A DNA stretch of 64,000 nucleotides from Deltaproteobacteria bacterium (GCA_020848745.1 JADLHM010000110.1:12688-76687); one strand, 5' to 3'; counted from the first letter of the stretch, positions 27,809-62,312 are shown. The notes: generated from the sequence alone by a model not told the origin. Numbers and translations are program-made.

Positions 27809-28095
27809 CGGCCCCGCCGCTCTTCACGATCGCGAGCCTTCAGGAGCCGGACCGTTCCTGCGGGAAGACGGCTTGCCGCCTCGGCCCGGCGGATGCCGTC
27901 CCCGCCCCGGCCGAACTCCCGGAAAACACTCCGAGAATGGGAATCGACGACCTTCGTCATGATGATCGCTGACGTTGGTCATAGGTGCATCACTAGCCCG
28001 TGCGTAGAGATGCCTCTAAGTATGGAGTCGTCTCTACGATTGTCGATGCCGGGGGCTCCGGGGCCCTGGCGCTCGAATCCATCGGAGGTGTCGCA

Positions 28096-31861: not shown

Positions 31862-31874
31862 TGCAGGAGCGTGT

Positions 31875-33596: not shown

Positions 33597-33620
33597 CGCT
33601 CGAGAAGGACGAGGCCGACG

Positions 33621-35303: not shown

Positions 35304-35743
35304 TGGATTCCACGGAGCGGACATCCCTTGCGGCGCAATTCGAGCGCCACGCGGACGAAGAGGGGAAGATCCTGGCGGAGTATCGCGTCCTCGCCGAGAA
35401 GCTCGGAAGCGGCGCCGCGGGGAACCTCGTGAGCCACATCTTGACCGAAGAGGAGCTCCATCACCTCCTCTTGCGGACCCTGGCGACGTGGCTGCGTGCG
35501 GCCCCCGCGGAGCACGCGCGCGCGATTCCACCGGAGGCCGATCGTGCCGAGTTGCTCCGCCTGACGAAGCTCCTCCGCAAGCACGAGCTCGAGACCATCG
35601 AGGCGTGCCGCGACACCCAGGCGCGATTGGCTGGTGCCGGCGACGACGGCGCAATCGTCGGCATCTTGCTGGAGGCCATGACCATGGATAGCGAGAAGCA
35701 CCATCGGTTGCTCGGCGCCGTGGAGCGGATGCTGACGAGCTGA
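35303..35743 (+). CDS. small ferritin-like four-helix-bundle protein with duplicated E..EExHH motifs (putative diiron protein)
   Basis: 146 aa from MDSTERT. ATG overlaps the paralog D stop (TGATG). Two repeats: AEYRVLAEKL...TEEELHH and ETIEACRD...DSEKHH. C-terminal part of artefactual ORF 33536..35743. Confidence 0.55.
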   Translation: MDSTERTSLAAQFERHADEEGKILAEYRVLAEKLGSGAAGNLVSHILTEEELHHLLLRTLATWLRAAPAEHARAIPPEADRAELLRLTKLLRKHELETIEACRDTQARLAGAGDDGAIVGILLEAMTMDSEKHHRLLGAVERMLTS

Positions 35744-35755
35744 GGAGATCCGCCA

Positions 35756-37237: not shown

Positions 37238-37271
37238 TCCCGTTCGGATTGCGAACAGAGCGAGGTGTGAG

Positions 37272-40185: not shown

Positions 40186-40740
40186 TCACCGCTGCGCGGC
40201 GGCCGACGCCTGCAGGCCCGACGCCGGCTCGTAGGCGAGCACCTCGACCAGGAGGACCCGCCGGCGGGTCGTGCCGACGGTCCGGCGATAGCGGACGAGC
40301 CGCCCCGTTTCGGGGTCGAACTCGGCGCGCAGGTCGACCGCCGGCGTGTCGCCGACCGCCTCGATGGTCGTCCAGCGGAGATCGGTCTGTAGCAGGTCGA
40401 AGATCCCCTGGACCGAGTAGTCGTCGCGCTCCCGGTCGGCGCCGCCGACCGGGTGGCCGTCGCGGGTGCGCTTCACGAGGGTGCCGCCCGCCACCTCGAT
40501 CTCCCATACCTCCACCGGAGCGCGTGGCGGCCGCACCCGCACGACCGCGCGATAGGAGCTGGAACCGTGCGCCTGCCAGCGCTGGCGGGCCGCCGCCAGC
40601 GACGCCTCGGTCAACGGCTCCATCGGGGGCGGCCCGAGCAGTGAGCAGCCGGCGAGCAGCAGCAGGACGGCTCCCCATGCCGTCCTTGCCCGCCGGCTGG
40701 TCGTCGCGTGACCAGGGCGTGCCGTGCCTGAGTCGGTCAC
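40186..40740 (-). CDS. hypothetical lipoprotein
   Basis: 184-aa ORF with signal plus LLAGCS lipobox. No family recognised. Confidence 0.45.
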   Translation of the reverse strand: MTDSGTARPGHATTSRRARTAWGAVLLLLAGCSLLGPPPMEPLTEASLAAARQRWQAHGSSSYRAVVRVRPPRAPVEVWEIEVAGGTLVKRTRDGHPVGGADRERDDYSVQGIFDLLQTDLRWTTIEAVGDTPAVDLRAEFDPETGRLVRYRRTVGTTRRRVLLVEVLAYEPASGLQASAAAQR

Positions 40741-40760: not shown

Positions 40761-43175
40761 TCAGGACGTCAGGGCGTGCTCGATCTCTTCCTCGTGGGCG
40801 GCCCAGTCCTTCTCGTAGACCGTCCATTCGCCTTCCTCGAGCTCGAGCTCACGAACGAGCACGCGGCCCCTCGACAGGATGAACCAGAGGAGAGGCAGGA
40901 CGCCGCCGAAGAGGAAGATGACCCCTCCGATCGTGCGCAGCCAGGTCAACTTCACCCACACGGGGCCGGTCACGAAGTCGTTGGTCCGGGCGTACCAGAA
41001 CCCGTGCGTCACGACCGCCGCCATCTGATACAGACCGACGGGAAACAGATCGAGCACCATCATCAGCACGAGTCCAGCCTGGAGCGACCAGAAACTCGTC
41101 CGGAGGAGCTTCTCGTTCCAGGCGGCGCGCGGGAACAAGTGCTGGCAGCAGAACAGTACGCCAGCCAGGGCGATGTTGCCCTTCACCCCGAACATCGCGG
41201 CGTGGGCATGATTGTGCGTCAGGTACGTCCCGTGCTCGAAGTAGTTCACGATCGGAAGGTTGATCAATGAGCCGAAGACCCCCGCGCCGACGATGTTCCA
41301 GAAGTTGCATGCGAGGATGAACAGCCACACGCCTTCCATCACGAATTTCTGCTTCCCTTGGGCCCTGTGCTCGCCCGCCCGGAGCTTCTCGTTCCGCATG
41401 CGCCACGCGTCCAGCGTCATCAGCAGGAGGGGCAGCACCTGCATGGTGGAGAAGACGCTCCCGAGCGCGATGATGCCCGTCGGCTTGGCGATCCAGTAGA
41501 AGTTGTGGGAAATGCCGACGATCGCCGTGATCAGAAACATCATCACGGCCAAGAAGATGACCCGTTCCGCCATGGAGCGGTTCAACAGTCCCATCTGCAC
41601 GAGCAGATAGGCGACGATGCAGGTCGTGAACACCTCGAACGTGACCTCGACCCACATGTGCACGGTCATCCAGCGCCAGTAGTCCGTGATGGCGAAGTTC
41701 CCGCTCGGCGTCGCGCCGAGCCCGAAGAACAGGAACAACACCATGATGCCGCTGCCGTAGAACAGCCATGCTGGCACCGACCACATGTTCTGCTTCGTGA
41801 TCCACGGCCGCACGCCCCGGTAGATGATCGCGATCCAGAGTACGAACGAGGCGAGCATCAGGATGTGCCAGAAGCGGCCGAGCTCCATGAACTCCCAGCC
41901 CTGGCTCCCGAGCCAGTACGACGCGGTGTCGCTCATGTATCCCATGTGTCCGAAATAGATGCCGAACAGCGCGCCGGCGCCGACGATCACGCAGAGCGCG
42001 AACAGCAAATTGATCAAGAAGCGCTGCCCGTTCGGTACGCGCGAGAGCCGCGGCAAGAAGAAAATCGTGTAGCCGACCCAGCACATGAAGAACCAGTAGA
42101 TCTGCAGGATCGTGTGCCACGCTCTGGTCACCGTGAAGGAGAAGGGGACGCCGAGAACCTTGACGATCGCCGTCCCGGGTCCGCCGCTGACGAAGTCCTC
42201 GGCGCTCAGGATGCCGGCGAGGACCTGGGCCAGGAAGAGGATCACGGCGAACGCGAAGAACTTGTAGGTGGCGCGTTGCGTGGGTCGAACGAACTCGTAG
42301 CCGCGCTCCAGCTCCGCGGTCGTCAGCGTTCCGCCGTTGGCGCCGTTGAACGGATCGCCGGGCAACTCCTTCATCTGGCCGTAGACGTAGAGCACCAGCA
42401 TCGCCCCCGCGAACAGCACCAGGATCGACAGGAAGCTCCACATCACGGTCGGCGTGGTCGGCACGTTCCCGGCGTCGGGATCGTACGGCCAGTTGTGCGT
42501 GTAGCTGTAGGGCTCACCCGGCCGCTTGGCGCCGGAGACCCAGCCGCCCCAGAAGAAGTATGCGGAGAGCGCCCGCAGGTCGTTCGGGTCGGTGATGTAG
42601 TTCGCCAACCGGAACTTCGCCGGATACGTCGGGTCCGTGAACACCCGCGCATAGTGCGTCTGCAGATCCTGATACGCGCGGATCTGGGCGTCGTTGATGC
42701 GGATGACGCCCGCGGCCTCGTCGTAGCCGTTCTCCTTGATCTCGCGCTGCACCCGCACCGCGATCGCGTCGCGGTCGGTTTGGCTCGAGGTGCCGCCGCT
42801 CGCCGCTTGGGCCTCGTAGAACGACCGCATGGAGACGACCGTGTGGTGCAGGGCCTCGGCGGTGAAGTCCGGTCCCCGTTCCGCGCCGTCGCCCCAGAAC
42901 GATCCCCAGGACATCAGGCCGCGGATGTGGAACAGCTCCTGTCCGCGCAGGATGTCGGAGAGCGGGATCACCTCCTTGCCGGTGCTGGCCGACACGAACG
43001 GAACGCGCGGCGGAGCGCTGCCGTACGTCCAGGTGCCGAGAGCGATCAACCCGAGCAGGCTGACCGCGGTGACGATCGCGAATTGGGTCAGCCAATTCGG
43101 CTTGGCGAGCATCCATTTGCCGAGGTTCTGCCTCGTCCGGGAGTTTCGGGTGCGTGCTTTCACGTCAGTGTGCAT
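40761..43175 (-). CDS. norZ: quinol-dependent nitric oxide reductase (qNOR, NorZ-type, large single subunit)
   Basis: 804 aa. N-terminal TM plus periplasmic domain fused to a 12-helix heme-copper oxidase core. Conserved His ligands including HNHAHAAMFGVKGN and GHMGYM. Start may be the internal Met (MLAKPNW). Confidence 0.85.
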   Translation of the reverse strand: MHTDVKARTRNSRTRQNLGKWMLAKPNWLTQFAIVTAVSLLGLIALGTWTYGSAPPRVPFVSASTGKEVIPLSDILRGQELFHIRGLMSWGSFWGDGAERGPDFTAEALHHTVVSMRSFYEAQAASGGTSSQTDRDAIAVRVQREIKENGYDEAAGVIRINDAQIRAYQDLQTHYARVFTDPTYPAKFRLANYITDPNDLRALSAYFFWGGWVSGAKRPGEPYSYTHNWPYDPDAGNVPTTPTVMWSFLSILVLFAGAMLVLYVYGQMKELPGDPFNGANGGTLTTAELERGYEFVRPTQRATYKFFAFAVILFLAQVLAGILSAEDFVSGGPGTAIVKVLGVPFSFTVTRAWHTILQIYWFFMCWVGYTIFFLPRLSRVPNGQRFLINLLFALCVIVGAGALFGIYFGHMGYMSDTASYWLGSQGWEFMELGRFWHILMLASFVLWIAIIYRGVRPWITKQNMWSVPAWLFYGSGIMVLFLFFGLGATPSGNFAITDYWRWMTVHMWVEVTFEVFTTCIVAYLLVQMGLLNRSMAERVIFLAVMMFLITAIVGISHNFYWIAKPTGIIALGSVFSTMQVLPLLLMTLDAWRMRNEKLRAGEHRAQGKQKFVMEGVWLFILACNFWNIVGAGVFGSLINLPIVNYFEHGTYLTHNHAHAAMFGVKGNIALAGVLFCCQHLFPRAAWNEKLLRTSFWSLQAGLVLMMVLDLFPVGLYQMAAVVTHGFWYARTNDFVTGPVWVKLTWLRTIGGVIFLFGGVLPLLWFILSRGRVLVRELELEEGEWTVYEKDWAAHEEEIEHALTS

Positions 43176-43214: not shown

Positions 43215-43667
43215 TCACGACGCGAACGCCGTGGGCACCTCGGCGGCGCCGTTGAAGAAGCGCTGCAGGCTCTGGTTGTACCGATAGAAGGCGTCTACCT
43301 CGAGTTGATCCGGTCCGCTGACGCGCATCGGATCGTCGGGGAACGTCAGGTAGTTGAGCGTGTGCGTGAGGTCGGGCCCGGCGTTGGCGCGGATGTTCTC
43401 GATCATCTCGCGCCAGGTCTCGAGCGAGGCCTCGAGCACGAAATGCTCGGACGTCGCTTCCTTCAGGTTGGCCAGCTTCCGCACCGAGGATGTCTTGAAG
43501 CCGTCGAACCCGACCTCGTAGAGCTGCGTGCCCGCGGGAGCCTCGACCTGGACCACCATCGTGCACTCGAGGGGGCCGAGTTCGCGGTACCCTGCTTCGT
43601 CCTGGTCCATGCGGCGCGCGAGCGCCTCGAACCACTGCGTCGACGGAAACAGCGTCGTGTCGGTCAT
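43215..43667 (-). CDS. hypothetical protein (SCP2/sterol-carrier-like?)
   Basis: 150-aa acidic soluble protein MTDTTLFPSTQWFEALARRMDQDE.... Between the diiron protein gene and norZ. Assignment tentative. Confidence 0.45.
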   Translation of the reverse strand: MTDTTLFPSTQWFEALARRMDQDEAGYRELGPLECTMVVQVEAPAGTQLYEVGFDGFKTSSVRKLANLKEATSEHFVLEASLETWREMIENIRANAGPDLTHTLNYLTFPDDPMRVSGPDQLEVDAFYRYNQSLQRFFNGAAEVPTAFAS

Positions 43668-43681
43668 GGGATGGTCTCCTC

Positions 43682-44785
43682 CTAGGCAGCGAGATCTTCG
43701 TACGGGATCTCTTTGGGTATGGTCAGGCGCGGCTCGCGATCGAGCCCCGCGATCTCGAGGCGACGCAGGTATTCCTTCACCTGCTTGGCGTAGATGAACG
43801 CCATGCGCTGCATGCCGAGCTCGATGTTGGCGAGCCCGCCGCCCGCGAGGATCGCGCGCGGCTCCGACGTTTGCGGTTCGAGCGTGAGCGTGAAGATCGC
43901 CTGCTCGCCGAGGTCGAGGATCTTGTGCACCTGCTCGGCGCGGTCGGGATGGCGCTCGAGGAAGTACTTGAGGTGCTTCACGCCGTAGGCGACGTGGCGC
44001 GCCTCGTCCTGCATGCAGAGGCGGAAGATCGCCTTCTCAACCTCGGTCGGGGCGAGGAACTCACCCTGGCGGAAGAGTGTGAGGACGAAGCCCTCGCCGA
44101 AGATGTGCATGAGGGCGCTCGCGGTCGTGTAGTCCGGCGCCTCGAGGATGGTCGCGAGGAGCTCCTCCTGGCCGGGCGACGCCATCAGGAGGCCGCCGCC
44201 GTTGGCGAGCGCGCGCTTGCGGAAGACGTCGAGGTGGCGCGCTTCGTCGAAGATCTGGCTCGCGAGGAAGAGTTTCACCTCGTGGAAGTCGTGGTTGATC
44301 CGGCAGAGCCACTTGGCCGGCATGTCGCCGGCGACGAACTCGACCTCGGTCAAGCCCGTGCACATCTGGCAGACGGCGCGCTCGATGTCGTCGGGGAGCT
44401 TCTGGAGCTTGTCCCACGGGACGTCGGTGACCGAGTTCCACTGCCGAACGACGGCCTCGTCGTAGAGCAGGCCGGCGTTTTCCGCCCAGACCTCGGACAT
44501 CTCGTTCATCGTGTACATGGGGAGGGACCGGGTGCCGGGCGGCACTTCGCAGCCGCGCGGTGCCATGCTGCCGTGCTCCGAGCCGTGCTCGGGCACCTGT
44601 CCGTAGTAGCCCGTCTCGATGTCGCGCATACGGAGCCCCGTGGGGCCCGCCGTGGCCTGGTGTCCCCATCCCGCGGGATTGGCCTGCATCCATTTCAGGT
44701 CGAAGTTGCCCTTCGCCATGTCTCGCATGCGGTCGAGTCCGACTTCGACGGTCGGGGTGTATTTCCCTGGGGGGTAGTTGCTCAT
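43682..44785 (-). CDS. ferritin-like diiron-carboxylate protein (putative diiron oxygenase, AurF/R2-like ligand pattern)
   Basis: 367 aa. Ligand pattern TEVEF ... FDEARH ... GEGF ... QDEARH (E, ExxH, E, ExxH) characteristic of dinuclear iron four-helix-bundle enzymes. Confidence 0.6.
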   Translation of the reverse strand: MSNYPPGKYTPTVEVGLDRMRDMAKGNFDLKWMQANPAGWGHQATAGPTGLRMRDIETGYYGQVPEHGSEHGSMAPRGCEVPPGTRSLPMYTMNEMSEVWAENAGLLYDEAVVRQWNSVTDVPWDKLQKLPDDIERAVCQMCTGLTEVEFVAGDMPAKWLCRINHDFHEVKLFLASQIFDEARHLDVFRKRALANGGGLLMASPGQEELLATILEAPDYTTASALMHIFGEGFVLTLFRQGEFLAPTEVEKAIFRLCMQDEARHVAYGVKHLKYFLERHPDRAEQVHKILDLGEQAIFTLTLEPQTSEPRAILAGGGLANIELGMQRMAFIYAKQVKEYLRRLEIAGLDREPRLTIPKEIPYEDLAA

Positions 44786-44997
44786 CGTGGCCTCCTGTTA
44801 GTGTGTGCGTTGACCGCCGCCGCGGCGCGCCGCCGCGAGAGCAGGATGTCTGCAGGGTCCAGCGTACGGATCACTGTGCAGCCTTCCTACCGGTTGGACG
44901 GCTGCGCGGGATGACGTCGGTCATGGTTCACGATGACGCATCGCCACGGGGTGGCCGACACGGGGCAAGGAGGACTCCGTGGCGGTCCGTGGTCAGG

Positions 44998-47427
44998 TCA
45001 TCCCGCCACTCCCGACGCGAACGGCGCCCCCGTGCCCCCGCCGATGCCGTGCTCGGTGCGCCGGATGATCTCGTCCTGCATCTCGGGTGTGAGGTCGCCG
45101 AAGTAGGCGCAGTAGCCAGAGATGCGGACGAGCAGGTGTGGATGCCGCTCGGGGTGGGCGCGGGCTTCACGCAGGACCGCGGTGTCGAGGACGTTCGTCT
45201 GGAGCTGCATGCCGCCGCGACGGAAGTAGGCGCCGAGCAGGGCGACGAACGCGGCGCGTCCGGTGTGACCGCGGAGCGTGTGCGGATCGAAGCGCGCGTT
45301 CAGGTTGGCGCCGTTCCGGACGCGGCCGAAGTCGATGCGGTTCACCGAGTTGAAGAGGGCCGTCGGCCCCGCGCGGTCCATGCCGTCGGCGGGTGCGATG
45401 CCCGACGCGAAGGGCGCGCCGCGACGGCGGCCATTGGCCGACGCACCCGTCCGGCTGCCGAAGTACTGGTGCGTCGTCATCGAGTAGAGCCCGGTGGTGT
45501 AGGGGCCGCCACGTGTGTTGGCGTACGCGCCGAGCGCGCGGGTGAAGGCGTCGACGACGTACGCGGTCCACGCGTCGGTCTCGGGCCGGTCGTTGCCGAA
45601 CTTCTCGAGTCGGCGGAGGTATCCGCACAGCTCGTCGTCGGGCAGGTCGCGCTTCAGCTGATCGACGAGCGCGGGCAGCCCGAGCCGCTCGTCCGCGAAG
45701 ACGGCACGCGCGATCGCGTGGAGGCTGTCGCCGGTGTCGCTGGCGCCGACGCCCTGGATGCCCGACCCGTTGTAGACGGCGCCCCCGGCCGTCGAGCACG
45801 TGCCTTGCTCGACGCACCCCGCGAGCAACATGCTGGTGAGGGGCGTCGGGTGGAACTTCCGGTGCGCGCGCTCGACGGCCTGCAGATCGCGCACCAGGCG
45901 GTCGACCTGGAAGGCGAGCTGAGTCTCGAAGGCCGCGCGCACGTCGTCCATCGTTCGCAGCCGCGACGGGTGCGGCGTGCGTGGGCCGCTGCGGCGGCGC
46001 ATGCCGAAGCGCCGCCCCTCGTTCAGCGCCAGCTCGAGGACGATCGGGAGATTGAAGAGCGCCGCGTCCGTCGAACCGAACGTGCGGCCCGGCGCGATTG
46101 GCTCGACGCACCCGCAGATCGCGTAGTCGTGGGCGTCGTCGTCGGCATAGCCGTTTGCTCGGAGCGCGGGGACGATGACGGCATCGTTGTAGAGCGCCGG
46201 AGCGTTGGCGCCGCCGCAGAGCACCTCGGCGACGCGCTCGACGTAGGCGCGTGGCGCCTCCGCGTGCAGGCGCGCGTGGAAGTTCGGTTGGCGCATGCGG
46301 AGCTCGTCGGCGAGCTCGAGGAGGACGTAGGTGAGCTCGTTGGTCGCGTCCCGTCCGGCGCGGTCGGTCCCGCCCATCGTGACGGCCTGGCCGCTCATGA
46401 GGCCGCCGTGCATGCGGGTCGCGGTCTCGGAGAACACCGGCACGACCTCGCAGAGCTTGATCGCGAACGCCGCCAGCCACTCCTTGGCGCCCTCGCGGTC
46501 GAGGACGCCGCGCGCGCGGTCGCGCAGGTAGTAGGGCATCAACAGCTGATCGAGGCGCCCCGGACTGATGCCGTTGTCGAGGCTCTCGAGGTTGAGGGCG
46601 ATCTGGGCGAACGTGATCGACTGCACGGCCTCGACGAACGACCGCGCGCCGAAGCGCGGCACGCGGCGGCAGGTCGCGGCGACGAGGCCGAGCTCTGCGC
46701 GCCGCGCCGTGTCCGTCTCGTGGGCGGCGAGCCGTTCCGCGACCGGGGCGTAGCGCTCGCCGAAGCGCGCGAGGGCGTCGGCGATGATGGCGACGCCTTC
46801 GAGGAACGCCCATTGCTCGGACGCGGGCCCGTGGAGCTGCTGGGCGGCGCGCGCCTCCTTCGCGATGCCGTCCGTGCCGATCGCGATCAGCTTCGCGTAG
46901 TCGGGCACGACGTGCGCGATGCCGGCGAGCTCGTTCAGCACGTAGTGCCGCGGCGCGAGCTGCTCGCGCAGGAAGGAGGCCTTGTTCCACGGCGAGCGGT
47001 AGACGCGGAACCCGAGCATGCGCGGCGCCCAGAACGGCATGATGCGCTGCAGGGCGGCGATCTCGTCGCGGCTCACCGCCAGCGGGTTCACGCGCCGATG
47101 GGGAAAAGTCGCGATCTCGCGCAGCATCGCCACGCCGTGCAGCTCGGGATAGATGGCGCCGCCGACGCGCTTCGACGAGAAGTTGCCGACCACGAGCTCG
47201 TCCGGGTGGATGCGGACCTGTTTTTTCGCGAGCACGTGCGCGAGCGCCTCCGCGGCCTGGATCGCGCGCGGTTTCGCCCGGTTGCCGCGGTCCGCGAAGT
47301 ATTCCGTCCAGAGGAGGGCGCGTTCGGGGCACACGGCCGGGGCGGCCTGCTGGACGGCGTCTTTCAGGCGCGCGATGCGCGACGGGGAGACGGAGGCGGG
47401 GCGGAGCTCAGTCGCAGACGACGACAT
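44998..47427 (-). CDS. glycyl radical enzyme, PFL2/glycerol-dehydratase (1,2-eliminase) clade, substrate unknown
   Basis: 809 aa from MSSSATELRPAS (ATG at 47427). Glycyl radical motif RISGYCAYFGDL near the C-terminus. Active-site loop AICGCVEPIAPG (Cys-x-Glu, typical of CutC/HypD/GDH-type eliminases rather than the PFL CC motif). Confidence 0.85.
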   Translation of the reverse strand: MSSSATELRPASVSPSRIARLKDAVQQAAPAVCPERALLWTEYFADRGNRAKPRAIQAAEALAHVLAKKQVRIHPDELVVGNFSSKRVGGAIYPELHGVAMLREIATFPHRRVNPLAVSRDEIAALQRIMPFWAPRMLGFRVYRSPWNKASFLREQLAPRHYVLNELAGIAHVVPDYAKLIAIGTDGIAKEARAAQQLHGPASEQWAFLEGVAIIADALARFGERYAPVAERLAAHETDTARRAELGLVAATCRRVPRFGARSFVEAVQSITFAQIALNLESLDNGISPGRLDQLLMPYYLRDRARGVLDREGAKEWLAAFAIKLCEVVPVFSETATRMHGGLMSGQAVTMGGTDRAGRDATNELTYVLLELADELRMRQPNFHARLHAEAPRAYVERVAEVLCGGANAPALYNDAVIVPALRANGYADDDAHDYAICGCVEPIAPGRTFGSTDAALFNLPIVLELALNEGRRFGMRRRSGPRTPHPSRLRTMDDVRAAFETQLAFQVDRLVRDLQAVERAHRKFHPTPLTSMLLAGCVEQGTCSTAGGAVYNGSGIQGVGASDTGDSLHAIARAVFADERLGLPALVDQLKRDLPDDELCGYLRRLEKFGNDRPETDAWTAYVVDAFTRALGAYANTRGGPYTTGLYSMTTHQYFGSRTGASANGRRRGAPFASGIAPADGMDRAGPTALFNSVNRIDFGRVRNGANLNARFDPHTLRGHTGRAAFVALLGAYFRRGGMQLQTNVLDTAVLREARAHPERHPHLLVRISGYCAYFGDLTPEMQDEIIRRTEHGIGGGTGAPFASGVAG

Positions 47428-48310
47428 CGATGCCTTCCTTTCCGAAATGCCGGGCGAATGGGGCGAGCGCGGCCGGGTCGAGGCGCGGACGGCCGAGCGG
47501 CGCCAGGATGGGCGCGAGGCGCGGAAGCTTGGCCTCGCCGAAGTCGTGGTACGGGAGGCAGCGCAGCGTGCGGTGTCCGTGGCGCGCAAGGAAGCGGGCC
47601 GTCGCTCGGACGTTGTCCGGGTCGTCGTTCAGCCCCGGGATCACCGGCATGCGCGGCTCGACGGCCACCTCGCTCGCGACGAGGCGCGCGAAATTGCGGA
47701 GGATGCGCTCGTTGCCCGCACCGGTCAGGCGCGCGTGCGCTGCGCTGTCCATGTGCTTCAGGTCGAACTGGACGAGGCCGACCCAAGGGAGGAGCGCCGC
47801 GACCTCGCGCCAGCGGAAGAGGCCGCAGGTCTGGAGCACGACGTGGATGCGTTCGGCCGCGAGGCGCGGCAGTAGCGCGCCGAGGTAGCCGGCGTGGATC
47901 GTCGGCTCGCCGCCCGAGAGCGTGACGCCGCCGCCCGACTCCGCGAAGTAGTCCCGGTCCTTCACGACCTCGGCGACGAGCGCGTCGACGGTGTAGCGGC
48001 GGCCGATCACCCGCAGCGCCTCGTGGCCGCACGCGTCGGCGCAGCGCCCGCACGCGTCGCAGCTCGCAAAGTCGATGCGGCGGTCTGGTCCCGACACGAT
48101 CGCGCCACGCGGGCAGGCGGCGGCGCAGCGCCGCTCGCCGGCGCAGCGGTCCGGGTGGAACGCGATTTCCGGTTCGCGCCGGATCGCTTCCGGATTGTGG
48201 CACCAGGCGCAGCGCAAGATGCAGCCCTTGAAAAAGACCGTCGTCCGGATGCCGGGGCCGTCGTGCAGCGAGAAGCGTTGGATGTCGACGACGACGGGAA
48301 GCTCGTCCAT
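47408..48310 (-). CDS. glycyl-radical enzyme activating protein (radical SAM, with two auxiliary ferredoxin-like clusters)
   Basis: 300 aa from MDELPVVVDIQRFSLHDGPGIRTTVFFKGCILRCAWCHN (CxxxCxxC) plus two extra Cys clusters (CAGERRCAAACP, CDACGRCADAC) as in activases of PFL2-type GREs. Alternative start 12 codons upstream (about 48346). Overlaps the GRE start by 20 nt. Confidence 0.8.
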   Translation of the reverse strand: MDELPVVVDIQRFSLHDGPGIRTTVFFKGCILRCAWCHNPEAIRREPEIAFHPDRCAGERRCAAACPRGAIVSGPDRRIDFASCDACGRCADACGHEALRVIGRRYTVDALVAEVVKDRDYFAESGGGVTLSGGEPTIHAGYLGALLPRLAAERIHVVLQTCGLFRWREVAALLPWVGLVQFDLKHMDSAAHARLTGAGNERILRNFARLVASEVAVEPRMPVIPGLNDDPDNVRATARFLARHGHRTLRCLPYHDFGEAKLPRLAPILAPLGRPRLDPAALAPFARHFGKEGIDVVVCD

Positions 48311-48587
48311 CCCCACCAGGCTACCGATCGGTCGGATGGGCTGCATGACGTAGGTCAGCGTGACGGCTGACGTTTGCGGGTCGCTCGGCCGGGACGAGCG
48401 ACGCCGGGACGACGGCGAACCAGTGGGCGTCGTGCGCGGTCCAGCAGCTCGCGAGGAGCACGGCGCGCTGCGTGGGTGTGGGTATCGCGTGCACGTGGGA
48501 CACCGAGACCTCCGAGATCCGTGCCTCCTCGTGCCTCGCGGCGCAAGGAGAGACGGTGACGTCGGTCGCGGCGCGGAGTGACGGTGA

Positions 48588-53018: not shown

Positions 53019-53314
53019 GAGACCCCTCGATCATACGGTCACGCGGTGGCCCGCGAAAGGGATGAAACGCGTCGAGATGACGTTCGTCAGCGCCATCGTT
53101 GACGCGCGCCGGACCCCCCGCGACTGCCCCCGACGCTGCGCTCTCCGGGCGGCGGGAATATCGCGTCGCGATCCGTCGCGTCGGCGGGAACGGGCGTCCG
53201 GTCCGCGCGGTCGAATCGAATGGCACTGGCTTTGCTGCTCCGAACCATGCGGCGCACGGCGGCGGTGGACGACCTTCACGTTCACCCGCGTGATCCGCCG
53301 CTCGGGAGGACGGG

Positions 53315-56794
<3,480 letters not shown>

Positions 56795-56806
56795 AGGAGG
56801 GGCGAT

Positions 56807-57932
56807 GCCCAAAGTCTACAACTGGCAGATCGGGCGCGAGATGGACTACCCCTACGAAGGGGCGCGGCCGAAGAAGCAGTTCGCGATGCTCTTCGACACC
56901 AACAAGTGCATCGCGTGTCAGACCTGCACGGTCGCCTGCAAGACGACGTGGACCCCCGGTCGCGGCCAGGAGTACATGTTCTGGAACAACGTCGAGACCA
57001 AGCCCTACGGGTACTACCCGCTCGGCTGGGATGTGAAGATCCTCGAGCAGCACGGCGTCCAGGACGTCGGCGGCCCGGTCTACAAGGGCAAGACGCTCTT
57101 CGAGTCGGCGCCGAGCGGCGAGCGCATCCTCGGCTACCTGCCCGAGGATCTCGACTACGCGCATCCGAACGTCGGCGAGGACGACTCCTTCGGCGACATG
57201 CAGCAGGGCGAGCTGCTGCAGATCCCGCACATGCAGTGGATGTATTACCTGCCGCGCATCTGCAATCACTGCACGTACCCGGCGTGCCTCGCGTCGTGCC
57301 CGCGCATGTCGATCTACAAGCGTGAGGAGGATGGCATCGTACTCCTCGACCAGACCCGCTGCCGCGGCTACCGCGAGTGTGTGAAGGGCTGCCCGTACAA
57401 GAAGACGTTCTTCAATCCGATCACGCGCGTCTCGGAAAAGTGCATTGGCTGCTATCCGGCGGTCGAGGGCGGCCGGCAGACCCAGTGCACGATCACCTGC
57501 ATCGGCAAGATCCGCCTGCAGGGTTTCATCGGCAAGCCCGACGAGATCCGCGAGGACAACCCGATCGACTACATCGTGCGCGTCGCGAAGATCGCGTGCC
57601 CGCTCTACCCGCAGTTCGGGCTGGAGCCGAATACCTACTACATCCCGCCGGTCCACGTGCCGCCGCGCTACCTCGTGCAGATGTTCGGCGCCGGCGTCGA
57701 GCGGGCGATCGCGGGGTATCGGAAGGCGGCTGACGACGAGAAGCTGCTCGGGGCGCTGCTTCTCTTCGGCGCGACCCCGATGATCATCCACCACTACAAG
57801 GTCGAGGCGGGGGTCTCGATCGGCTTCGACGAGAAGGGCGGCGAGCTCGTGCGCGTGCCGCTCAGAGAGGCGATCCACGTGCGGGCCGCCTTCGACGAAC
57901 AGCACCAGGCGTACCGCACCAACATCACGTGA
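56807..57932 (+). CDS. type II DMSO reductase-family beta subunit (four Fe-S clusters, NarH/EbdB-like)
   Basis: 375 aa. KQFAMLFDTNKCIACQTCTVACK N-terminal ferredoxin motif plus three further Cys clusters. AAGGAGG RBS. Confidence 0.85.
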
Positions 57933-57943
57933 GGGATCCACGC

Positions 57944-58798
57944 ATGTCCACCCGATGGGGAACGAGGCTCGTGCTCGCCGCCGCCTTGGCGCTCGTGGCG
58001 GGAGAGGTGGGGGCGCAGATGGCCGAGCTGCGCGTCGTGCGCGTTCGCGAGAAGGGGCCGTTTCGCGACCCCGCCGCGGCGTTCTGGAAGGACGCGCCGG
58101 CGACCCCGGTGGCGTTGCTGCCGCAGGCGATGACGCTGCCGAACAACCTCAAGCCGGCGGTCCAGTCGCTGCAGGCCAAGGCGGTCCACGACGGCAAGTG
58201 GCTCGCGCTGCTTCTCGAATGGCCGGACGCCACCAGGAGCGACCGCATCGTGGTCGACCAGTTCGGCGATCAGGTCGCGATCGAGTTCCCGGCCGAGTTC
58301 AAGAAGGACGCGCTTCCGAGCCCGATGATGGGGAACCCGGGCGGGCGCGTCGAGATCTGGCAGTGGCGCGCCGCGTTCCAGCAGGATCTCGAGCGCGGCC
58401 GGCCGCAGGTCACCAACGACCTCTATCCGAACGCGCACGCCGATGTGTACCCGGACGAGCTCCTGCGGGCGATCGACGCCCGGCCCTACATGGGCGCGGT
58501 CGGCGTCGACAACCTGATCACGCACGCCGACAAGAGCCCCGTGCTCGAGCAGCTCGCGGAGGGCTGGGGCTCGCTCACGATCCAGCCCGACGACCAGCGG
58601 GCGGACGGGAAGGGGGTGTGGGCCGACGGCACCTGGCGCGTCGTCGTCACGCATCCGCTCGCGGGCGGCGAGGGCCATGTCGGCTTCGCGCCCGGCGGCG
58701 AGTCGGCGGTCGCGTTCGCCGTCTGGGACGGCGGCAGCCGCGAGGTCGGCCCGCGCAAGGCATGGTCCACCTGGGCCGCCCTGAAGCTCGCCGAGTGA
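57944..58798 (+). CDS. type II DMSO reductase-family gamma subunit (EB_dh haem b domain, EbdC/DdhC/SerC-like)
   Basis: About 284 aa from MSTRWGTRLVLAAALALVAG (signal). Periplasmic haem-b subunit fold. Start inside ORF 57929..58798. Confidence 0.75.
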   Translation: MSTRWGTRLVLAAALALVAGEVGAQMAELRVVRVREKGPFRDPAAAFWKDAPATPVALLPQAMTLPNNLKPAVQSLQAKAVHDGKWLALLLEWPDATRSDRIVVDQFGDQVAIEFPAEFKKDALPSPMMGNPGGRVEIWQWRAAFQQDLERGRPQVTNDLYPNAHADVYPDELLRAIDARPYMGAVGVDNLITHADKSPVLEQLAEGWGSLTIQPDDQRADGKGVWADGTWRVVVTHPLAGGEGHVGFAPGGESAVAFAVWDGGSREVGPRKAWSTWAALKLAE

Positions 58799-59556: not shown

Positions 59557-59731
59557 CGCGCGCGCATCGCGCCGGGCGGACGGCGAGGACGTACGGCTCC
59601 CCGTGGTGACGTCGGTCAGGGCGTTCGCCCCCAAGCGGTCATCGCGACACGGCTGACGATCCCTTCAACATTGAACGATGACCCATCCCCGTCCGGCAGT
59701 TCCGGAAGCTCCGGCGAGCGCCTCCGGTCCG

Positions 59732-60600: not shown

Positions 60601-60705
60601 TCGCTGCGGCGCTGCGCTGAGGGCTCGGAGGGCTCGGCGGCGCGTCATTCGCCTGGATGACGTCGGTCATGGGATGCCATCCGACCGTTCGGTAGTCGGA
60701 CGTGC

Positions 60706-61374
60706 ATGCGCACCGCCATGAAACCTCGCGTCGCGGACGGCCAGCGCGCCGTCCCTCCCGCTGACGGAAGACGATTCGGTACGCGCGAGGCGATCCTCGC
60801 CGCTGCTGCGCGCTCGTTCGCCGAGCGCGGCTATCATCGCACGAGCCTCCACGAGGTGGCGGAGGATGTCGGCATCCAGAAGGCATCGATCTTCCACCAT
60901 TTCGCGAGCAAGGAAGCGCTCTATCGCGCGGTGCTCGCGGAAGGCCACGGCGAGGGCGAGGCCATCGTCCGCCGGGCGATCGCGGGTGGCGGCTCGTGGT
61001 GGGAGCGGATGCGCGCGTTGCTGGACGCGTACATCGATCTCGTCGCCGCCCGTCCCGAGCAGACCAAGATCCTGCTCCGGCAGTCGCTCGGCGACGCGCC
61101 CGAGGGCTACGACGGGGGGCCGGATTCGGACCGCCTTATTGCGCTCGTGACGTCGTTCATGGACGAAGGGCAACGCGCGGGGGCCTTCGCGCCCTGCGAC
61201 GGCCTCGGCCTGGTGCTCGGCGTGATGGGGATGGTCGTCTTCTTCTTCACGTCCGCGCCGGTCGTCGCCTCCGGGTGGAGTGCGGAGCTCTCGGCAGAAG
61301 GCGTCGAAGCCGTCCGTCACCGCGTGACCGCGATCGTCGAGCGCGTGCTCCTTCAGGCCGTCAGATTGCCGTAG
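60706..61374 (+). CDS. TetR family transcriptional regulator
   Basis: TetR HTH (REAILAAAARSFAERGYHRTSLHEVAEDVGIQKASIFHHFASKEALY). Start could be Met5 (MKPRV). Confidence 0.65.
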   Translation: MRTAMKPRVADGQRAVPPADGRRFGTREAILAAAARSFAERGYHRTSLHEVAEDVGIQKASIFHHFASKEALYRAVLAEGHGEGEAIVRRAIAGGGSWWERMRALLDAYIDLVAARPEQTKILLRQSLGDAPEGYDGGPDSDRLIALVTSFMDEGQRAGAFAPCDGLGLVLGVMGMVVFFFTSAPVVASGWSAELSAEGVEAVRHRVTAIVERVLLQAVRLP

Positions 61375-62072
61375 TGCGCGAGGCGCGTGAGGCGCTCGAG
61401 ATCGAGCACCACGACGCCCTCGTCCTCGATCGAGATCATCTTGTTGCGTTTCAGCTTCGCGAGCAGGCGGATCGCTGTCTCGGTCGAGACGCCGATCATG
61501 TCCGCGAGCTCGCGGCGTGAGTAGGTGAGGCGGATGAGGGGCGGGGCGTCGTTCGTGTCGGCGTCGTGACAGGCGCCGTCGCCGAGCCGCAGGAGGAGGT
61601 CGGCGAGGCGCGCGTCGGCCCGCTTCAGCGCGAGCTCGCCCGCCTTGCGGCGGGTCGCAGCGAGCGCCCGGCTGAGCGTCGCGACCAGCTGGATGCTCGT
61701 TTTCGGATGGCGTTCGAGGAACTTCACGAGCCGCTCGCGGGGCAGGAACGAGAGCTGCGCCTCGGTCAGCGCCTCCGCTGAGGCGGAGAAGGTGTCCTCG
61801 TCGTCGAGGCCGAGCTCGCCGAGGATCGCGCCCGGCGTCGCGACGTCGATGATGAACTCGCGACCGAAGCGGTCCGACTGATAGAGCTTCACGTTGCCGT
61901 GGCAGAGGACGTAGAAGCCTGTCGCCGGCGTGCCCTCGTGGAAGACGACCTGCCGTGGCTTGTAGAGGCCGGTCACGGCGCAGGTCTGGAAGTCGCCGAG
62001 ATCCTCGAAGGGGAGGTCCGCGATGCAGGTATGCGCCCGGACCGTGCACTGTTGACAGGAAATGCGCCTCAT
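61353..62072 (-). CDS. Crp/Fnr family transcriptional regulator with N-terminal Cys cluster (Fnr-like sensor)
   Basis: 239 aa from MRRISCQQCTVRAHTC (C-x2-C-x5-C). cNMP-binding-like beta-roll. C-terminal HTH (RRELADMIGVSTETAIRLLAKL). Trimmed from ORF 61353..62135. Confidence 0.75.
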   Translation of the reverse strand: MRRISCQQCTVRAHTCIADLPFEDLGDFQTCAVTGLYKPRQVVFHEGTPATGFYVLCHGNVKLYQSDRFGREFIIDVATPGAILGELGLDDEDTFSASAEALTEAQLSFLPRERLVKFLERHPKTSIQLVATLSRALAATRRKAGELALKRADARLADLLLRLGDGACHDADTNDAPPLIRLTYSRRELADMIGVSTETAIRLLAKLKRNKMISIEDEGVVVLDLERLTRLAHYGNLTA

Positions 62073-62312
62073 CGCGCTGTTTCCCGCGGCGCGCGGTTCG
62101 CAGGTGCGTGAATCGCGGGCGCGACCCGGCGGCATGGCTGCGAACGATGCGGTTCGGATGGACTCTGGAGTCGCGATTGCGCGTTCATGCGGGTCGTATC
62201 TCTAGCACGGCTAGCAATCGTCACGCCAATTCCGCCACTTGCCTTGCGGCCCGCGAATGGCGGGGGATATAAGTGCCGGGTCTTTGTTCCGGCACGGGGG
62301 GACCCTCACAGC

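What the first reader, a model, noticed from the sequence alone, without database searches (positions are those of the whole stretch)
43215..44785. Diiron-carboxylate (E, ExxH, E, ExxH) protein and SCP2-like protein between the GRE operon and qNOR
A 367-aa protein carries two ExxH motifs (DEARH twice), each preceded by a Glu-containing helix. This is the dinuclear iron site of R2, AurF, MiaE or fatty-acid-desaturase-like oxygenases, but at a size and sequence not matching the common ones from memory. It is followed by a 150-aa acidic protein resembling lipid/sterol carrier domains. Together with the GRE upstream they may form one unit acting on a hydrophobic substrate. Alternatively this is an NO/O2-scavenging diiron protein given norZ immediately downstream.
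Basis: partly seen in the sequence, partly recalled or inferred. Interest (0 to 1): 0.55.

Follow-up and report, generated by a model that had tools for sequence, protein, structure and literature searches.

The report
Diiron oxygenase pair heading nod operon
Two real genes encode an uncharacterised but widespread iron-containing, oxygen-using enzyme and its lipid-carrier-like partner, which here share an operon not with the neighbouring glycyl-radical enzyme but with a putative oxygen-producing nitric oxide dismutase, pointing to a way of doing oxygen-dependent chemistry without external oxygen.

Summary
Window 43682-44785(-) encodes a ferritin-like protein with a complete, invariant E/ExxH/E/ExxH site (E149, E181, H184, E231, E261, H264). 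Window 43215-43667(-) encodes an acidic protein with an SCP2 fold. They form an obligate pair: the partner lies directly downstream in 82 of 82 evaluable loci from Binatia, Myxococcota, Gammaproteobacteria, Actinomycetota and Chloroflexota. No curated family reaches threshold. The closest solved relative is the azoxy synthase VlmB (about 21% identity).

The proposed link to the glycyl-radical enzyme (GRE) fails: 0 of 85 genome loci, and 2 of 13 close metagenome relatives, one of them inverted.

The downstream "qNOR" carries the full nitric oxide dismutase (Nod) signature: quinol-site residues lost, His560 to Asn, Glu581 to Gln. The order diiron, SCP2, nod, with 14 and 39 nt gaps, recurs in 16 loci of one Binatia subclade. 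An FNR-type palindrome (ATGAC-N4-GTCAT) precedes it and marks six intergenic sites in the window.

In Actinomycetota and Chloroflexota a ferredoxin gene follows the pair in 21 of 21 loci.

Best reading: a ferredoxin-dependent, O2-activating diiron enzyme acts on a hydrophobic substrate presented by the SCP2 partner, and in this lineage it is wired to Nod-derived O2 under anoxia. The substrate is unknown.

The parts
44912..44923 (.). FNR-type palindrome TGACGTCGGTCA (extended form ATGAC-N4-GTCAT). Its centre lies about 130 nt upstream of the diiron start codon. Putative operator of the diiron-SCP2-nod operon.
   Evidence: One of 6 matches in the window, against 0.73 expected; 0 of 100 shuffles reach 6. 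All six are intergenic or abut a start codon. The same box lies upstream of the diiron gene in L006 and L009 and in 8 of 9 nod-linked metagenome loci with an intact 5' region.
43682..44785 (-). Ferritin-like diiron-carboxylate protein, 367 aa. Putative ligands are E149, E181, H184, E231, E261 and H264. It also carries the invariant motif VFRKRALANGGGL (187-199).
   Evidence: ORF, SD and start; homologues; invariant ligands; AF2 model with pLDDT 89.5; Foldseek hits to VlmB, PaaA/C, R2, R2lox, ADO and ACP desaturase; profile against PDB finds VlmB homologue at E=9e-5.
43215..43667 (-). Obligate partner with an SCP2-like fold, 150 aa, pI 4.5. Its start lies 14 nt after the diiron stop.
   Evidence: Lies directly downstream on the same strand in 82 of 82 evaluable loci. 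AF2 pLDDT 81. Foldseek matches SCP2 and UbiJ-SCP2 with probability 0.97-1.0 and TM 0.41-0.58. Weak sequence match to T. thermophilus SCP2 2cx7.
40761..43175 (-). Putative nitric oxide dismutase (Nod; qNOR-family protein with the Nod signature), 804 aa. Its start lies 39 nt after the SCP2-like stop.
   Evidence: Pfam NorB_cytochrome_c-like plus COX1. Aligned to G. stearothermophilus qNOR 3AYF: H328->E, E332->S, F336->G, D746->G, H560->N, E581->Q, with H508, E512 and H559 kept. The same N/Q signature is found in all 44 full-length relatives. Signature as defined in PMC3413370 and PMC10286720.
40186..40740 (-). DUF6174-like lipoprotein, 184 aa, 20 nt downstream of nod. Probable tail of the operon.
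   Evidence: Weak Pfam DUF6174 hit. A homologue follows nod in L006, L086, L087, L090, L095, L096 and L116.
61353..62201 (-). Crp/Fnr-family regulator with an N-terminal C-x2-C-x6-C motif. Candidate binder of the ATGAC-N4-GTCAT boxes.
   Evidence: Pfam cNMP_binding plus HTH_Crp_2. NCBIfam Fnr, FixK and FnrL hits below cut-off. Sequence. Crp/Fnr genes also flank the pair in L009 and L017.
44998..47427 (-). Glycyl radical enzyme of the PFL2/glycerol-dehydratase type. It is a neighbour in a separate transcription unit and is not part of the conserved module.
   Evidence: Pfam PFL-like plus Gly_radical; TIGR01774 scores 625 bits, below its cut-off of 678. Best PDB matches are PFL2, glycerol dehydratase and diol dehydratase. 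Absent from 85 of 85 genome loci. Start at 47427.
47408..48310 (-). GRE-activating radical SAM enzyme, upstream of the GRE and overlapping it by 20 nt.
   Evidence: TIGR02494 at 297 bits. Start at 48310.
48346..48357 (.). Second copy of the palindrome, about 40 nt upstream of the activase start. It puts the GRE operon in the same putative regulon.
53078..53089 (.). Third copy of the palindrome, in the divergent region between the 1476-aa multihaem/GSDH protein and the nxrABC-like genes.
53294..58798 (+). NxrABC-like type II DMSO-reductase-family enzyme (alpha 1166 aa, beta, and a haem-b gamma subunit). Same putative regulon.
   Evidence: Alpha subunit against Kuenenia NXR 7b04_B gives E=1e-256. 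Pfam and NCBIfam results. In L025 the diiron-SCP2 pair directly heads an nxrABC-like operon whose alpha is 51% identical.
27970..27981 (.). Fourth copy of the palindrome, upstream of six tandem FAD oxidoreductase genes (28317-38744).
59607..59618 (.). Fifth copy of the palindrome, upstream of a TetR gene (59675-60331).
60658..60669 (.). Sixth copy of the palindrome, at the start of a second TetR gene (60661-61374).

Best explanation
Genes 43682-44785 and 43215-43667 encode a two-component soluble enzyme of an uncharacterised, widespread family.

The large subunit is a ferritin-like four-helix-bundle protein. It binds a dinuclear (Fe/Fe or Mn/Fe) centre through E149, E181-x2-H184, E231 and E261-x2-H264. 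The small acidic subunit has an SCP2 fold and is proposed to hold a hydrophobic, lipid-like substrate and hand it to the catalytic subunit.

Inferred mechanism: the dimetal centre is reduced, by a dedicated 2x[4Fe-4S] ferredoxin in Actinomycetota and Chloroflexota and by a general donor elsewhere. It then activates O2 and hydroxylates, desaturates or otherwise oxidises the bound substrate.

In this genome and its Binatia relatives the pair has been placed at the head of an operon: diiron, SCP2, nod, DUF6174. The operon sits behind an FNR-type box. The O2-requiring enzyme is therefore made together with a putative NO dismutase (2 NO -> N2 + O2) when external O2 is absent, and most plausibly consumes the O2 that Nod releases.

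What is shown: the gene pair and its strict conservation, the ligand set and fold, the absence of a GRE link, the Nod signature of the downstream gene, the conserved operon order, and the palindrome.

What is inferred: metal content, O2 activation, the carrier role of the SCP2 partner, FNR control, O2 hand-over from Nod, and the (unknown) substrate.
For: Ligands and fold:
- All six ligands are invariant in 85 sequences.
- AF2 model at pLDDT 89.5.
- Foldseek returns only diiron oxygenases, oxidases and R2 proteins. The PDB profile hit is VlmB at E=9e-5, aligned over both ExxH helices.

Partner:
- Directly downstream in 82 of 82 evaluable loci across 5 phyla.
- SCP2 and UbiJ-SCP2 are the top fold matches.
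- The invariant residues of the partner are mostly hydrophobic or aromatic.

Electron donor:
- A ferredoxin gene follows the pair in all 19 Actinomycetota and 2 Chloroflexota loci, always within 1.5 kb. It matches YfhL- and FdxA-type models below their cut-offs.

Nod:
- Signature residues are shared by all 44 relatives.
- The criteria come from PMC3413370 and PMC10286720.

Operon:
- Gaps of 14 and 39 nt, each with an SD, and no terminator-like site predicted in the short gaps within the operon.
- The same order occurs in L006 and L009 plus 13 metagenome loci.

Regulation:
- The palindrome occurs 6 times in the window against 0.73 expected.
- It is present upstream of the diiron gene in 8 of 9 intact nod-linked loci.
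- It is enriched about 5-fold upstream of the pair in the genome set (10 observed, 2.0 expected).
- Crp/Fnr genes with N-terminal Cys motifs lie nearby.

Supporting context:
- In L025 the pair heads an nxrABC-like operon.
- The relative UTPRO1 (L087) lives in anoxic anammox granules, has nirK, and expresses its 'norZ'.
Against: - No biochemical data exist for any member, and the substrate is unknown.
- The SCP2 assignment rests on fold similarity with modest scores (E 2e-3, TM about 0.5). No Pfam SCP2 hit was found.
- About 80 of 85 loci have no N-oxide gene nearby, so the Nod link is lineage-specific and could simply reflect co-regulation.
- Neighbouring genes outside the pair vary (acyl-CoA dehydrogenase, luciferase-like, SDR, desaturase). 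They are not clearly enriched over what such genomes carry anyway.
- The window contains no ferredoxin gene of the actinobacterial type.
- NO dismutation by Nod has itself never been demonstrated directly. PMC3413370 calls these proteins putative.
- The nearest solved relative, VlmB, does N-N/N-O chemistry, so nitrogen-centred chemistry cannot be excluded.
- FNR binding to the palindrome is inferred from the shape of the sequence alone.
Confidence: 0.5

Rival explanations
1. Nitrogen-oxide chemistry. The diiron centre reacts with NO, nitrite or an N-containing metabolite rather than with O2 plus a lipid. Possible roles are NO buffering or reduction, making NO from nitrite for Nod, or N-oxygenation of the VlmB/AurF kind. 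The pair would then serve the N-oxide respiratory enzymes it is co-transcribed with.
For: - Operon with nod in 16 loci, and with nxrABC-like genes in L025.
- FNR-type box.
- The nearest solved homologue, VlmB, is an azoxy synthase; AurF gives a weak hit.
- No nirS or nirK in the window.
- From my own knowledge, Ralstonia eutropha has a norA-norB operon in which a diiron protein precedes qNOR.
Against: - Most loci that carry the pair have no N-oxide gene.
- This reading leaves the SCP2-type hydrophobic carrier and the ferredoxin partner unexplained.
- There is no similarity to hemerythrin-like (YtfE/NorA) or flavodiiron NO-handling proteins.
- The relative UTPRO1 has its own nirK and norBC.
- The third His ligand of the AurF class is not conserved: H227 is Q in 14 of 85 sequences, and it lies on a different helix.
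Confidence: 0.2
2. Accessory or protective factor. The pair removes O2 (for example as a quinol- or lipid-dependent oxidase akin to alternative oxidase) to protect O2-sensitive enzymes such as the GRE from Nod-derived or intruding O2. Alternatively, it supplies iron or a lipid or quinone cofactor to the membrane respiratory enzymes.
For: - Same putative regulon as an O2-sensitive GRE and an NXR-like enzyme.
- Ferritin-like fold.
- UbiJ-SCP2, which holds quinone intermediates for hydroxylases, is among the best fold matches (PMC9499169).
- FNR-type boxes occur in several lineages.
Against: - No hit to AOX, rubrerythrin, ferritin/Dps or Coq7 families.
- The family occurs in Actinomycetota and Chloroflexota, which by general knowledge use menaquinone, and no ubi or men genes lie nearby.
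- A dedicated ferredoxin points to a reductant-consuming oxygenase or desaturase rather than a substrate-driven oxidase.
- Ferritin-type ferroxidase and storage features were not seen, but this was not specifically tested.
Confidence: 0.15
3. One reading: GRE, diiron protein and SCP2-like protein form one functional unit acting on a hydrophobic substrate.
For: - They are adjacent in the window and in L086.
- Both transcription units carry the same palindrome in this window.
Against: - GRE and activase are absent from 85 of 85 genome loci and from 11 of 13 close nod-linked loci.
- In L116 they are on the opposite strand.
- A 212-nt gap with a separate operator separates the GRE from the diiron gene.
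- The GRE is most like diol and glycerol dehydratases, which act on small polar substrates.
- GREs are O2-sensitive, whereas diiron oxygenases need O2 (general knowledge).
Confidence: 0.03

Closest known systems
VlmB azoxy synthase and its Kitasatospora homologue (PDB 8wvr, 6d9f); DUF455-like ferritin-like proteins
   Same: Best sequence and fold match: profile E=9e-5 and Foldseek E=8e-5, with TM 0.5-0.6. Both ExxH helices align (DEARH and DE-V-RH). Size is similar, about 320-360 aa.
   Different: Only about 21% identity. Pfam DUF455 scores 16 bits against a cut-off of 34. This family has a conserved 130-residue N-terminal extension, the VFRKRALANGGGL motif and an obligate SCP2-like partner. 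None of the 85 loci examined showed an obvious natural-product (hydrazine/azoxy) gene cluster.
Soluble acyl-ACP desaturases (for example castor stearoyl-ACP desaturase) with ACP and ferredoxin
   Same: A soluble diiron four-helix-bundle enzyme of about 360 aa. Its hydrophobic substrate arrives on a small acidic carrier protein, and electrons come from ferredoxin. Recovered as fold matches. Ferredoxin is linked in 21 of 21 Actinomycetota and Chloroflexota loci.
   Different: No Pfam FA_desaturase_2 hit, and low TM (about 0.3). The carrier here has an SCP2 fold (non-covalent binding) rather than an ACP with phosphopantetheine.
Coq7-Coq9 and the Ubi metabolon (hydroxylases plus UbiJ/UbiT SCP2 proteins)
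   Same: A hydroxylase that depends on a lipid-binding accessory protein to present a very hydrophobic substrate. UbiJ-SCP2 is among the top fold matches of the small protein (PMC9499169 and PMC6747719).
   Different: No Coq7 (PF03232) or Ubi hit. No ubi genes nearby. The family also occurs in phyla not known to make ubiquinone.
PaaABC(E) phenylacetyl-CoA epoxidase and BoxAB
   Same: A ferritin-like catalytic subunit plus small accessory subunits. A Sulfolobus phenylacetic-acid-degradation-like protein (4mud) and PaaA are fold matches at ranks 5-8. Ligand-less paralogues exist in the wider family, as PaaC is to PaaA. Acyl-CoA genes are sometimes adjacent.
   Different: 12-14% identity and no Pfam PaaA_PaaC hit. 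The partner has a different fold from PaaB, and no reductase component is encoded.
Nod with pMMO in 'Ca. Methylomirabilis oxyfera', and Nod with alkane oxidation in strain HdN1 (intra-aerobic metabolism)
   Same: A Nod-type qNOR paralogue (Asn for His560, Gln for Glu581, no quinol site) in an organism that also encodes O2-dependent oxygenases.
   Different: In the papers I could search I found no report of nod in one operon with its presumed O2 consumer. Here the oxygenase is soluble and diiron, sits with nod in one operon behind one operator, and the host is a Binatia (UTPRO1-like) bacterium. No such association was found in the searchable literature.

Membership tests
Ferritin-like diiron-carboxylate superfamily | Ligand pattern E ... 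ExxH ... E ... ExxH, with about 30-residue spacing on four core helices | tested here: met
   E149, E181xxH184, E231 and E261xxH264, with spacings of 32 and 30 residues. Invariant in 85 sequences. The residues lie on helices 132-160, 168-194, 219-240 and 248-278 of the AF2 model.
Ferritin-like diiron-carboxylate superfamily | Four-helix-bundle fold similar to solved members | tested here: met
   The top 50 Foldseek PDB matches are all diiron-carboxylate proteins (VlmB, PaaA/C, R2, R2lox, ADO, ACP desaturase, sMMO), with probability 0.94-1.0.
Ferritin-like diiron-carboxylate superfamily | Binds two metal ions (Fe/Fe or Mn/Fe) and reacts with O2 | not testable with these tools
   Requires purified protein, metal analysis and spectroscopy.
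VlmB / DUF455 (PF04305) | Score above the Pfam gathering threshold | tested here: not met
   16.4 bits against a cut-off of 34.3. One homologue (P0059) carries a precomputed PF04305 hit. The relation is remote: 21% identity.
AurF/CmlI N-oxygenases (PF11583) | Pfam threshold, and the extra His ligand (3 His/4 carboxylate site; from my own knowledge) | tested here: not met
   13.1 bits against a cut-off of 29.6. The position 4 residues before E261 is Cys257. H227 (helix 3) is Q in 14 of 85 sequences.
R2-like ligand-binding oxidase (NF006200/NF006202) | NCBIfam equivalog cut-off | tested here: not met
   22 and 20 bits against cut-offs of 194 and 315. Fold TM is 0.45-0.62.
MiaE, Coq7, acyl-ACP desaturase, PaaA/PaaC, BMM hydroxylase, AOX, rubrerythrin (Pfam families) | Any Pfam hit at E<=0.1 | tested here: not met
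   Only DUF455 and AurF were reported at E<=0.1.
SCP2 sterol-carrier fold (PF02036 and relatives) | Sequence-family membership | tested here: not met
   No Pfam or NCBIfam hit. T. thermophilus SCP2 2cx7 matches only at E=0.08-0.27.
SCP2 sterol-carrier fold (PF02036 and relatives) | Alpha/beta fold superposable on SCP2 domains | tested here: met
   SCP2-fold proteins (insect SCP2-like proteins, UbiJ-SCP2, yeast, human and rabbit SCP2) fill ranks 1-9 and recur further down the list. Probability 0.97-1.0, TM 0.41-0.58, model pLDDT 81. Scores are modest.
SCP2 sterol-carrier fold (PF02036 and relatives) | Binds a lipid in a hydrophobic tunnel | not testable with these tools
   Only indirect evidence: the invariant residues are mainly F, W, L and M.
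Nitric oxide dismutase (Nod) - downstream gene 40761-43175 | qNOR architecture (haem-c-less cytochrome c-like domain plus the HCO core) | tested here: met
   PF22085 plus PF00115. Full-length alignment to qNOR 3AYF at E=1.8e-126.
Nitric oxide dismutase (Nod) - downstream gene 40761-43175 | Quinol-binding residues His328, Glu332, Phe336 (and Asp746) not conserved | tested here: met
   The residues are E, S, G and G respectively. Criterion from PMC3413370 and PMC10286720.
Nitric oxide dismutase (Nod) - downstream gene 40761-43175 | FeB ligand His560 replaced by Asn, and the nearby catalytic Glu replaced by Gln | tested here: met
   N558 and Q579. The same residues are present in all 44 full-length relatives. 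Those at 61-66% identity show the Thr/Arg pattern reported for the NC10 and aquifer clusters.
Nitric oxide dismutase (Nod) - downstream gene 40761-43175 | Catalyses 2 NO -> N2 + O2 | not testable with these tools
   The activity is still called putative in the literature read here.
   0 of 85 genome loci. 2 of 13 nod-linked metagenome loci, one of them inverted.

The most novel reading that the evidence does not exclude
The operon diiron, SCP2, nod is a self-contained 'oxygen from nitric oxide' oxidation module. Under anoxia an FNR-type regulator switches on a NO dismutase together with a dedicated soluble diiron oxygenase and its lipid carrier. O2 made from NO is then consumed at once to oxidise a hydrophobic substrate. 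This would be the first case where nod is genetically coupled to its O2-consuming enzyme. It would also extend intra-aerobic metabolism to Binatia and to a new oxygenase family.
Probability: 0.3. Interest if true: 0.85.

Novelty: new variant of a known kind. Interest (0 to 1): 0.62.

Why it matters
1. The pair defines a large diiron enzyme family that has no curated model and no known function. It has more than 570 species-level genome hits and 921 clusters at 50% identity. Its unusual architecture, with an obligate SCP2-fold partner and in some phyla a dedicated ferredoxin, makes it an obvious target for enzyme discovery in lipid or hydrocarbon chemistry.

2. Whether Nod really makes O2, and what uses that O2, has been open since 2010-2012. 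An operon that places nod behind the same promoter as an O2-dependent enzyme gives a compact, clonable three-gene system in which O2 transfer can be tested directly.

3. The gene called norZ in Binatia/UTPRO1-type genomes, including a transcriptionally active member of anammox granules, probably does not make N2O. That matters for N-cycle budgets inferred from metagenomes.

Tried and rejected
- GRE linkage: tested by tblastn of GRE and activase against 85 genome loci and 57 nod loci, and rejected.
- Assignment to a named diiron family: Pfam, NCBIfam and PDB sequence and profile searches gave only sub-threshold hits.
- Functional clue from conserved neighbours: all-against-all clustering of ORFs within 10 kb found no universally conserved third gene. 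Acyl-CoA dehydrogenase, enoyl-CoA hydratase, SDR, P450, luciferase-like and desaturase genes recur, but mostly within single clades or at distances no shorter than background. Only the ferredoxin is position-specific.
- Domain fusions in distant family members: only a SnoaL_2 fusion (P0307) and a probable frameshift artefact with a lycopene cyclase fragment (P0363) were found. Several long forms have lost the ligands.
- A ubiquinone (Coq7/UbiJ-like) role: considered, but no ubi genes are nearby and the family occurs in non-ubiquinone phyla.
- A metal site in the small protein (C35, H102): these residues are not conserved across phyla.
- Sigma-70 promoter scan: nothing found. This is uninformative in a genome of about 70% G+C.
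- Exact look-up of the 367-aa protein: not on record, since homologues start 5 residues later.
- Literature: no paper found links ferritin-like/diiron proteins with SCP2, or nod with Binatia or ferritin-like proteins.
Full report
**1.
On the minus strand, 43682-44785 encodes a 367-aa protein and 43215-43667 a 150-aa protein. Both have Shine-Dalgarno sequences and are 14 nt apart. The diiron ORF has coding-type GC3 of 0.92 in this roughly 70% G+C window.

The large protein has 2432 homologues at E<=1e-3 in the 5.8-billion-protein collection. Most are about 362 aa, 62-96% identical, and named at best 'ferritin-like domain-containing protein'. It has 921 cluster representatives in the 50%-identity library. 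The small protein has 369 homologues, one of them 100% identical in a 'Deltaproteobacteria bacterium' MAG.

The two DEARH motifs are D180-E-A-R-H184 and D260-E-A-R-H264, preceded by E149 and E231. All six residues are invariant in 85 sequences from five phyla down to 48% identity. An AlphaFold2 model (pLDDT 89.5, pTM 0.91) places them on four long helices.

**2. Family assignment of the large protein.**
- Pfam gives only DUF455 (16 bits, cut-off 34) and AurF (13 bits, cut-off 30).
- NCBIfam gives only R2lox fragments (about 20 bits, cut-offs 194-315).
- A profile of 62 members finds one solved relative, the VlmB homologue 6d9f/8wvr (E=9e-5), aligned across both ExxH helices.
- Foldseek agrees: VlmB at E about 1e-4, TM 0.5-0.6 and 21% identity. 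Next come PaaA/PaaC-like proteins, R2, R2lox, aldehyde-deformylating oxygenase, acyl-ACP desaturase and sMMO.

The protein is therefore a bona fide ferritin-like diiron-carboxylate protein, but a member of none of the named families. Features specific to this family are a conserved, mostly non-helical N-terminal 130 residues and the nearly invariant stretch VFRKRALANGGGL just after the first ExxH. More distant, longer relatives (P0253, P0261, P0245) have lost the ligands (DYARH, DLARQ). This recalls the relation of PaaC to PaaA.

**3. The small protein.**
It is acidic (pI 4.5) and has no Pfam or NCBIfam hit. It matches Thermus SCP2 2cx7 only weakly (E 0.08-0.27). Its model (pLDDT 81) has SCP2-fold proteins as its best PDB matches, among them mosquito SCP2-like-2, UbiJ-SCP2 and Yarrowia and rabbit SCP2. 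Probabilities are 0.97-1.0 and TM 0.41-0.58. The residues conserved across all phyla are mostly hydrophobic or aromatic, plus D125, R129 and Q135. The SCP2-like reading is supported at fold level, with modest scores.

**4. The conserved unit is the pair, not the trio.**
A scan of one genome per species returned more than 573 species with a relative. I examined the best 80 plus five other loci. The SCP2-like gene lies directly downstream on the same strand in 82 of 82 evaluable loci. The other three end at a contig edge. GRE and activase are found in 0 of 85 loci.

Everything else in the neighbourhood varies. There is one position-specific exception. In all 19 Actinomycetota and both Chloroflexota loci, a protein of about 130 aa follows the pair immediately. 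It is a 2x[4Fe-4S] ferredoxin that matches YfhL- and FdxA-type models below their cut-offs and carries a Cys-rich tail.

Lipid and acyl-CoA genes recur next to the pair in several phyla: acyl-CoA dehydrogenase, CoA transferase, acyl-CoA synthetase, wax-ester synthase, luciferase-like oxidoreductase and membrane desaturase. They are not clearly more frequent near the pair than farther away. I treat them as only a hint of a hydrophobic substrate.

**5. The downstream gene is not an ordinary qNOR.**
Gene 40761-43175 has the qNOR architecture and aligns end to end with Geobacillus qNOR 3AYF. In that alignment:
- the quinol-site residues are replaced: His328 by Glu, Glu332 by Ser, Phe336 by Gly and Asp746 by Gly;
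- the FeB ligand His560 is Asn, and Glu581 is Gln;
- His508, Glu512 and His559 are kept.

This is the signature by which putative nitric oxide dismutases are told apart from qNOR (PMC3413370 and PMC10286720). A metagenome scan gave 57 related loci. All 44 full-length proteins (61-88% identical) have Asn and Gln at these positions. The most distant show Thr328/Arg332, the pattern reported for the NC10 and aquifer nod clusters.

**6. Operon and regulon.**
The nod start lies 39 nt after the SCP2-like stop and has its own SD. No terminator-like site is predicted in the short gaps within the operon. A DUF6174-like lipoprotein gene follows nod.

The order diiron, SCP2, nod is found in L006 and L009 and in 13 metagenome loci, all with nod at least 81% identical to the window's. 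It is found in none of the more distant nod loci. It is therefore a derived arrangement of one Binatia subclade that includes 'Polyangiaceae bacterium UTPRO1', reclassified as Binatota.

The GRE and activase accompany this arrangement only in L086, and inverted in L116. In the window the GRE stop and the diiron start are 212 nt apart. That gap holds the palindrome TGACGTCGGTCA (ATGAC-N4-GTCAT).

The pattern TGAC-N4-GTCA occurs six times in the window against 0.73 expected; 0 of 100 shuffles reach six. All six are intergenic or abut a start codon. They lie upstream of:
- the diiron operon;
- the activase-GRE operon;
- the nxrABC-like genes;
- six tandem FAD oxidoreductase genes;
- two TetR genes.

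The same box precedes the diiron gene in 8 of 9 nod-linked loci with an intact 5' end. It also appears in L017, L036 and L068, and canonical TGAT-N4-ATCA boxes appear in some gammaproteobacterial loci. Overall the enrichment upstream of the pair is about five-fold (10 observed, 2.0 expected).

A Crp/Fnr regulator with an N-terminal C-x2-C-x6-C motif is encoded at 61353-62201. Similar genes flank the pair in L009 and L017. FNR-type control, meaning expression at low O2, is an inference from these sequence features.

**7. Further links to N-oxide respiration.**
The window's type II molybdoenzyme (53294-58798) matches Kuenenia nitrite oxidoreductase NxrA at E=1e-256. In L025, a different lineage, the pair directly heads an nxrABC-like operon whose alpha subunit is 51% identical. 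NnrS is also encoded in the window.

The relative UTPRO1 (L087) was recovered from anoxic anammox granules. It carries nirK, norBC, nosZ and narGHI, and it expressed its 'norZ' (UTPRO1_2015, RPKM 9.6). I did not confirm which contig carries that locus tag.

**8. Interpretation.**
Four things point to an O2-activating diiron enzyme (hydroxylase or desaturase type) whose hydrophobic substrate is presented by the SCP2-like subunit:
- the complete, invariant diiron ligand set;
- the exclusive structural kinship to O2-activating diiron enzymes;
- the strictly linked hydrophobic-carrier-like partner;
- the dedicated ferredoxin in two phyla.

The closest functional analogies are acyl-ACP desaturase with ACP and ferredoxin, and Coq7-Coq9 or the Ubi hydroxylases with UbiJ. 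The family as a whole is independent of N-oxide metabolism. In the lineage of this window it has been placed in one operon with nod under an FNR-type box. The most economical reading is that the enzyme uses O2 released by Nod during anoxic nitrate or nitrite respiration. I put this at about 0.5 for the general mechanism and 0.3 for the specific O2 hand-over.

The rivals are set out in the Rival explanations section:
- nitrogen-centred chemistry (VlmB-like, NO or nitrite handling), 0.2;
- an O2-removing or cofactor-supplying accessory role, 0.15;
- the GRE-centred unit, 0.03.

**9. Novelty and limits.**
I found no paper linking such a pair with SCP2, or nod with Binatia or with a ferritin-like neighbour. 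All functional statements rest on sequence, predicted structure and gene context. The metal content, substrate, reaction, regulator binding and Nod activity are all untested.

Noticed in passing
window 40761-43175 (-): The gene read as qNOR/norZ has the complete Nod (putative NO dismutase) signature: quinol site lost, His560->Asn, Glu581->Gln. Genome annotations and N-cycle inferences that call it norZ, for example in UTPRO1, are probably wrong.
   Followed up: yes
window 27970, 44912, 48346, 53078, 59607, 60658: Six copies of the palindrome TGACGT-NN-GTCA, against 0.73 expected. All are intergenic or at gene starts. They define a putative FNR-type regulon covering FAD oxidoreductases, the diiron-nod operon, the GRE operon, NXR-like genes and two TetR genes.
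   Followed up: partly
window 53294-58798 (+); L025 2266-7825: An NxrABC-like periplasmic-type nitrite oxidoreductase or nitrate reductase (alpha against Kuenenia NXR, E=1e-256). In L025 the diiron-SCP2 pair directly heads a homologous nxrABC-like operon.
   Followed up: partly
window 48588-53018 (-): A 1476-aa secreted protein that combines a glucose/sorbosone-dehydrogenase beta-propeller, Cys-rich repeats and five CxxCH haem-c motifs (residues 779-1009). It is an unusual multihaem fusion that shares a divergent, box-containing promoter region with the nxr-like genes.
   Followed up: no
window 28317-38744 (+): Six tandem paralogous FAD-dependent oxidoreductases of the amine-oxidase/phytoene-desaturase type, behind one of the palindromes. 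Function unknown.
   Followed up: no
window 40186-40740 (-); L006, L086, L087, L090, L095, L096, L116: A small DUF6174-like lipoprotein gene follows nod, both in loci that have the diiron pair and in loci that lack it. It is a possible Nod accessory protein.
   Followed up: partly
L096, L097, L099, L100, L104, L111, L127: A YfhL-type 2x[4Fe-4S] ferredoxin of about 125 aa lies next to nod in seven loci that lack the pair. It is 42% identical over 66 residues to the N-terminal half of the ferredoxin that follows the diiron-SCP2 pair in Actinomycetota.
   Followed up: partly
L003-L005, L018, L019 (about 6221-7648 in L003): In marine gammaproteobacterial MAGs a divergent 476-aa COX1-superfamily protein lies directly upstream of the pair, next to a cox operon. 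It has an H-x3-Y motif but only one His where helix VII normally has HH, and it gives no NCBIfam hit.
   Followed up: no
P0253, P0261, P0245, P0307 (distant family representatives): Longer relatives (448-479 aa) have lost the ExxH ligands, so they may be non-catalytic partner subunits. One representative, P0307, carries an N-terminal SnoaL_2 (NTF2-like) domain.
   Followed up: partly
L031 11603-12193; L035 11609-12169: In two Binataceae-type loci a second, small (about 190 aa) ferritin-like protein with its own ExxH motifs follows the pair directly.
   Followed up: no
window 23842-25128 (+): An NnrS (haem/copper NO-response membrane protein) gene lies about 16 kb from nod. It is followed by a luciferase-like monooxygenase gene and a radical SAM gene.
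   Followed up: no
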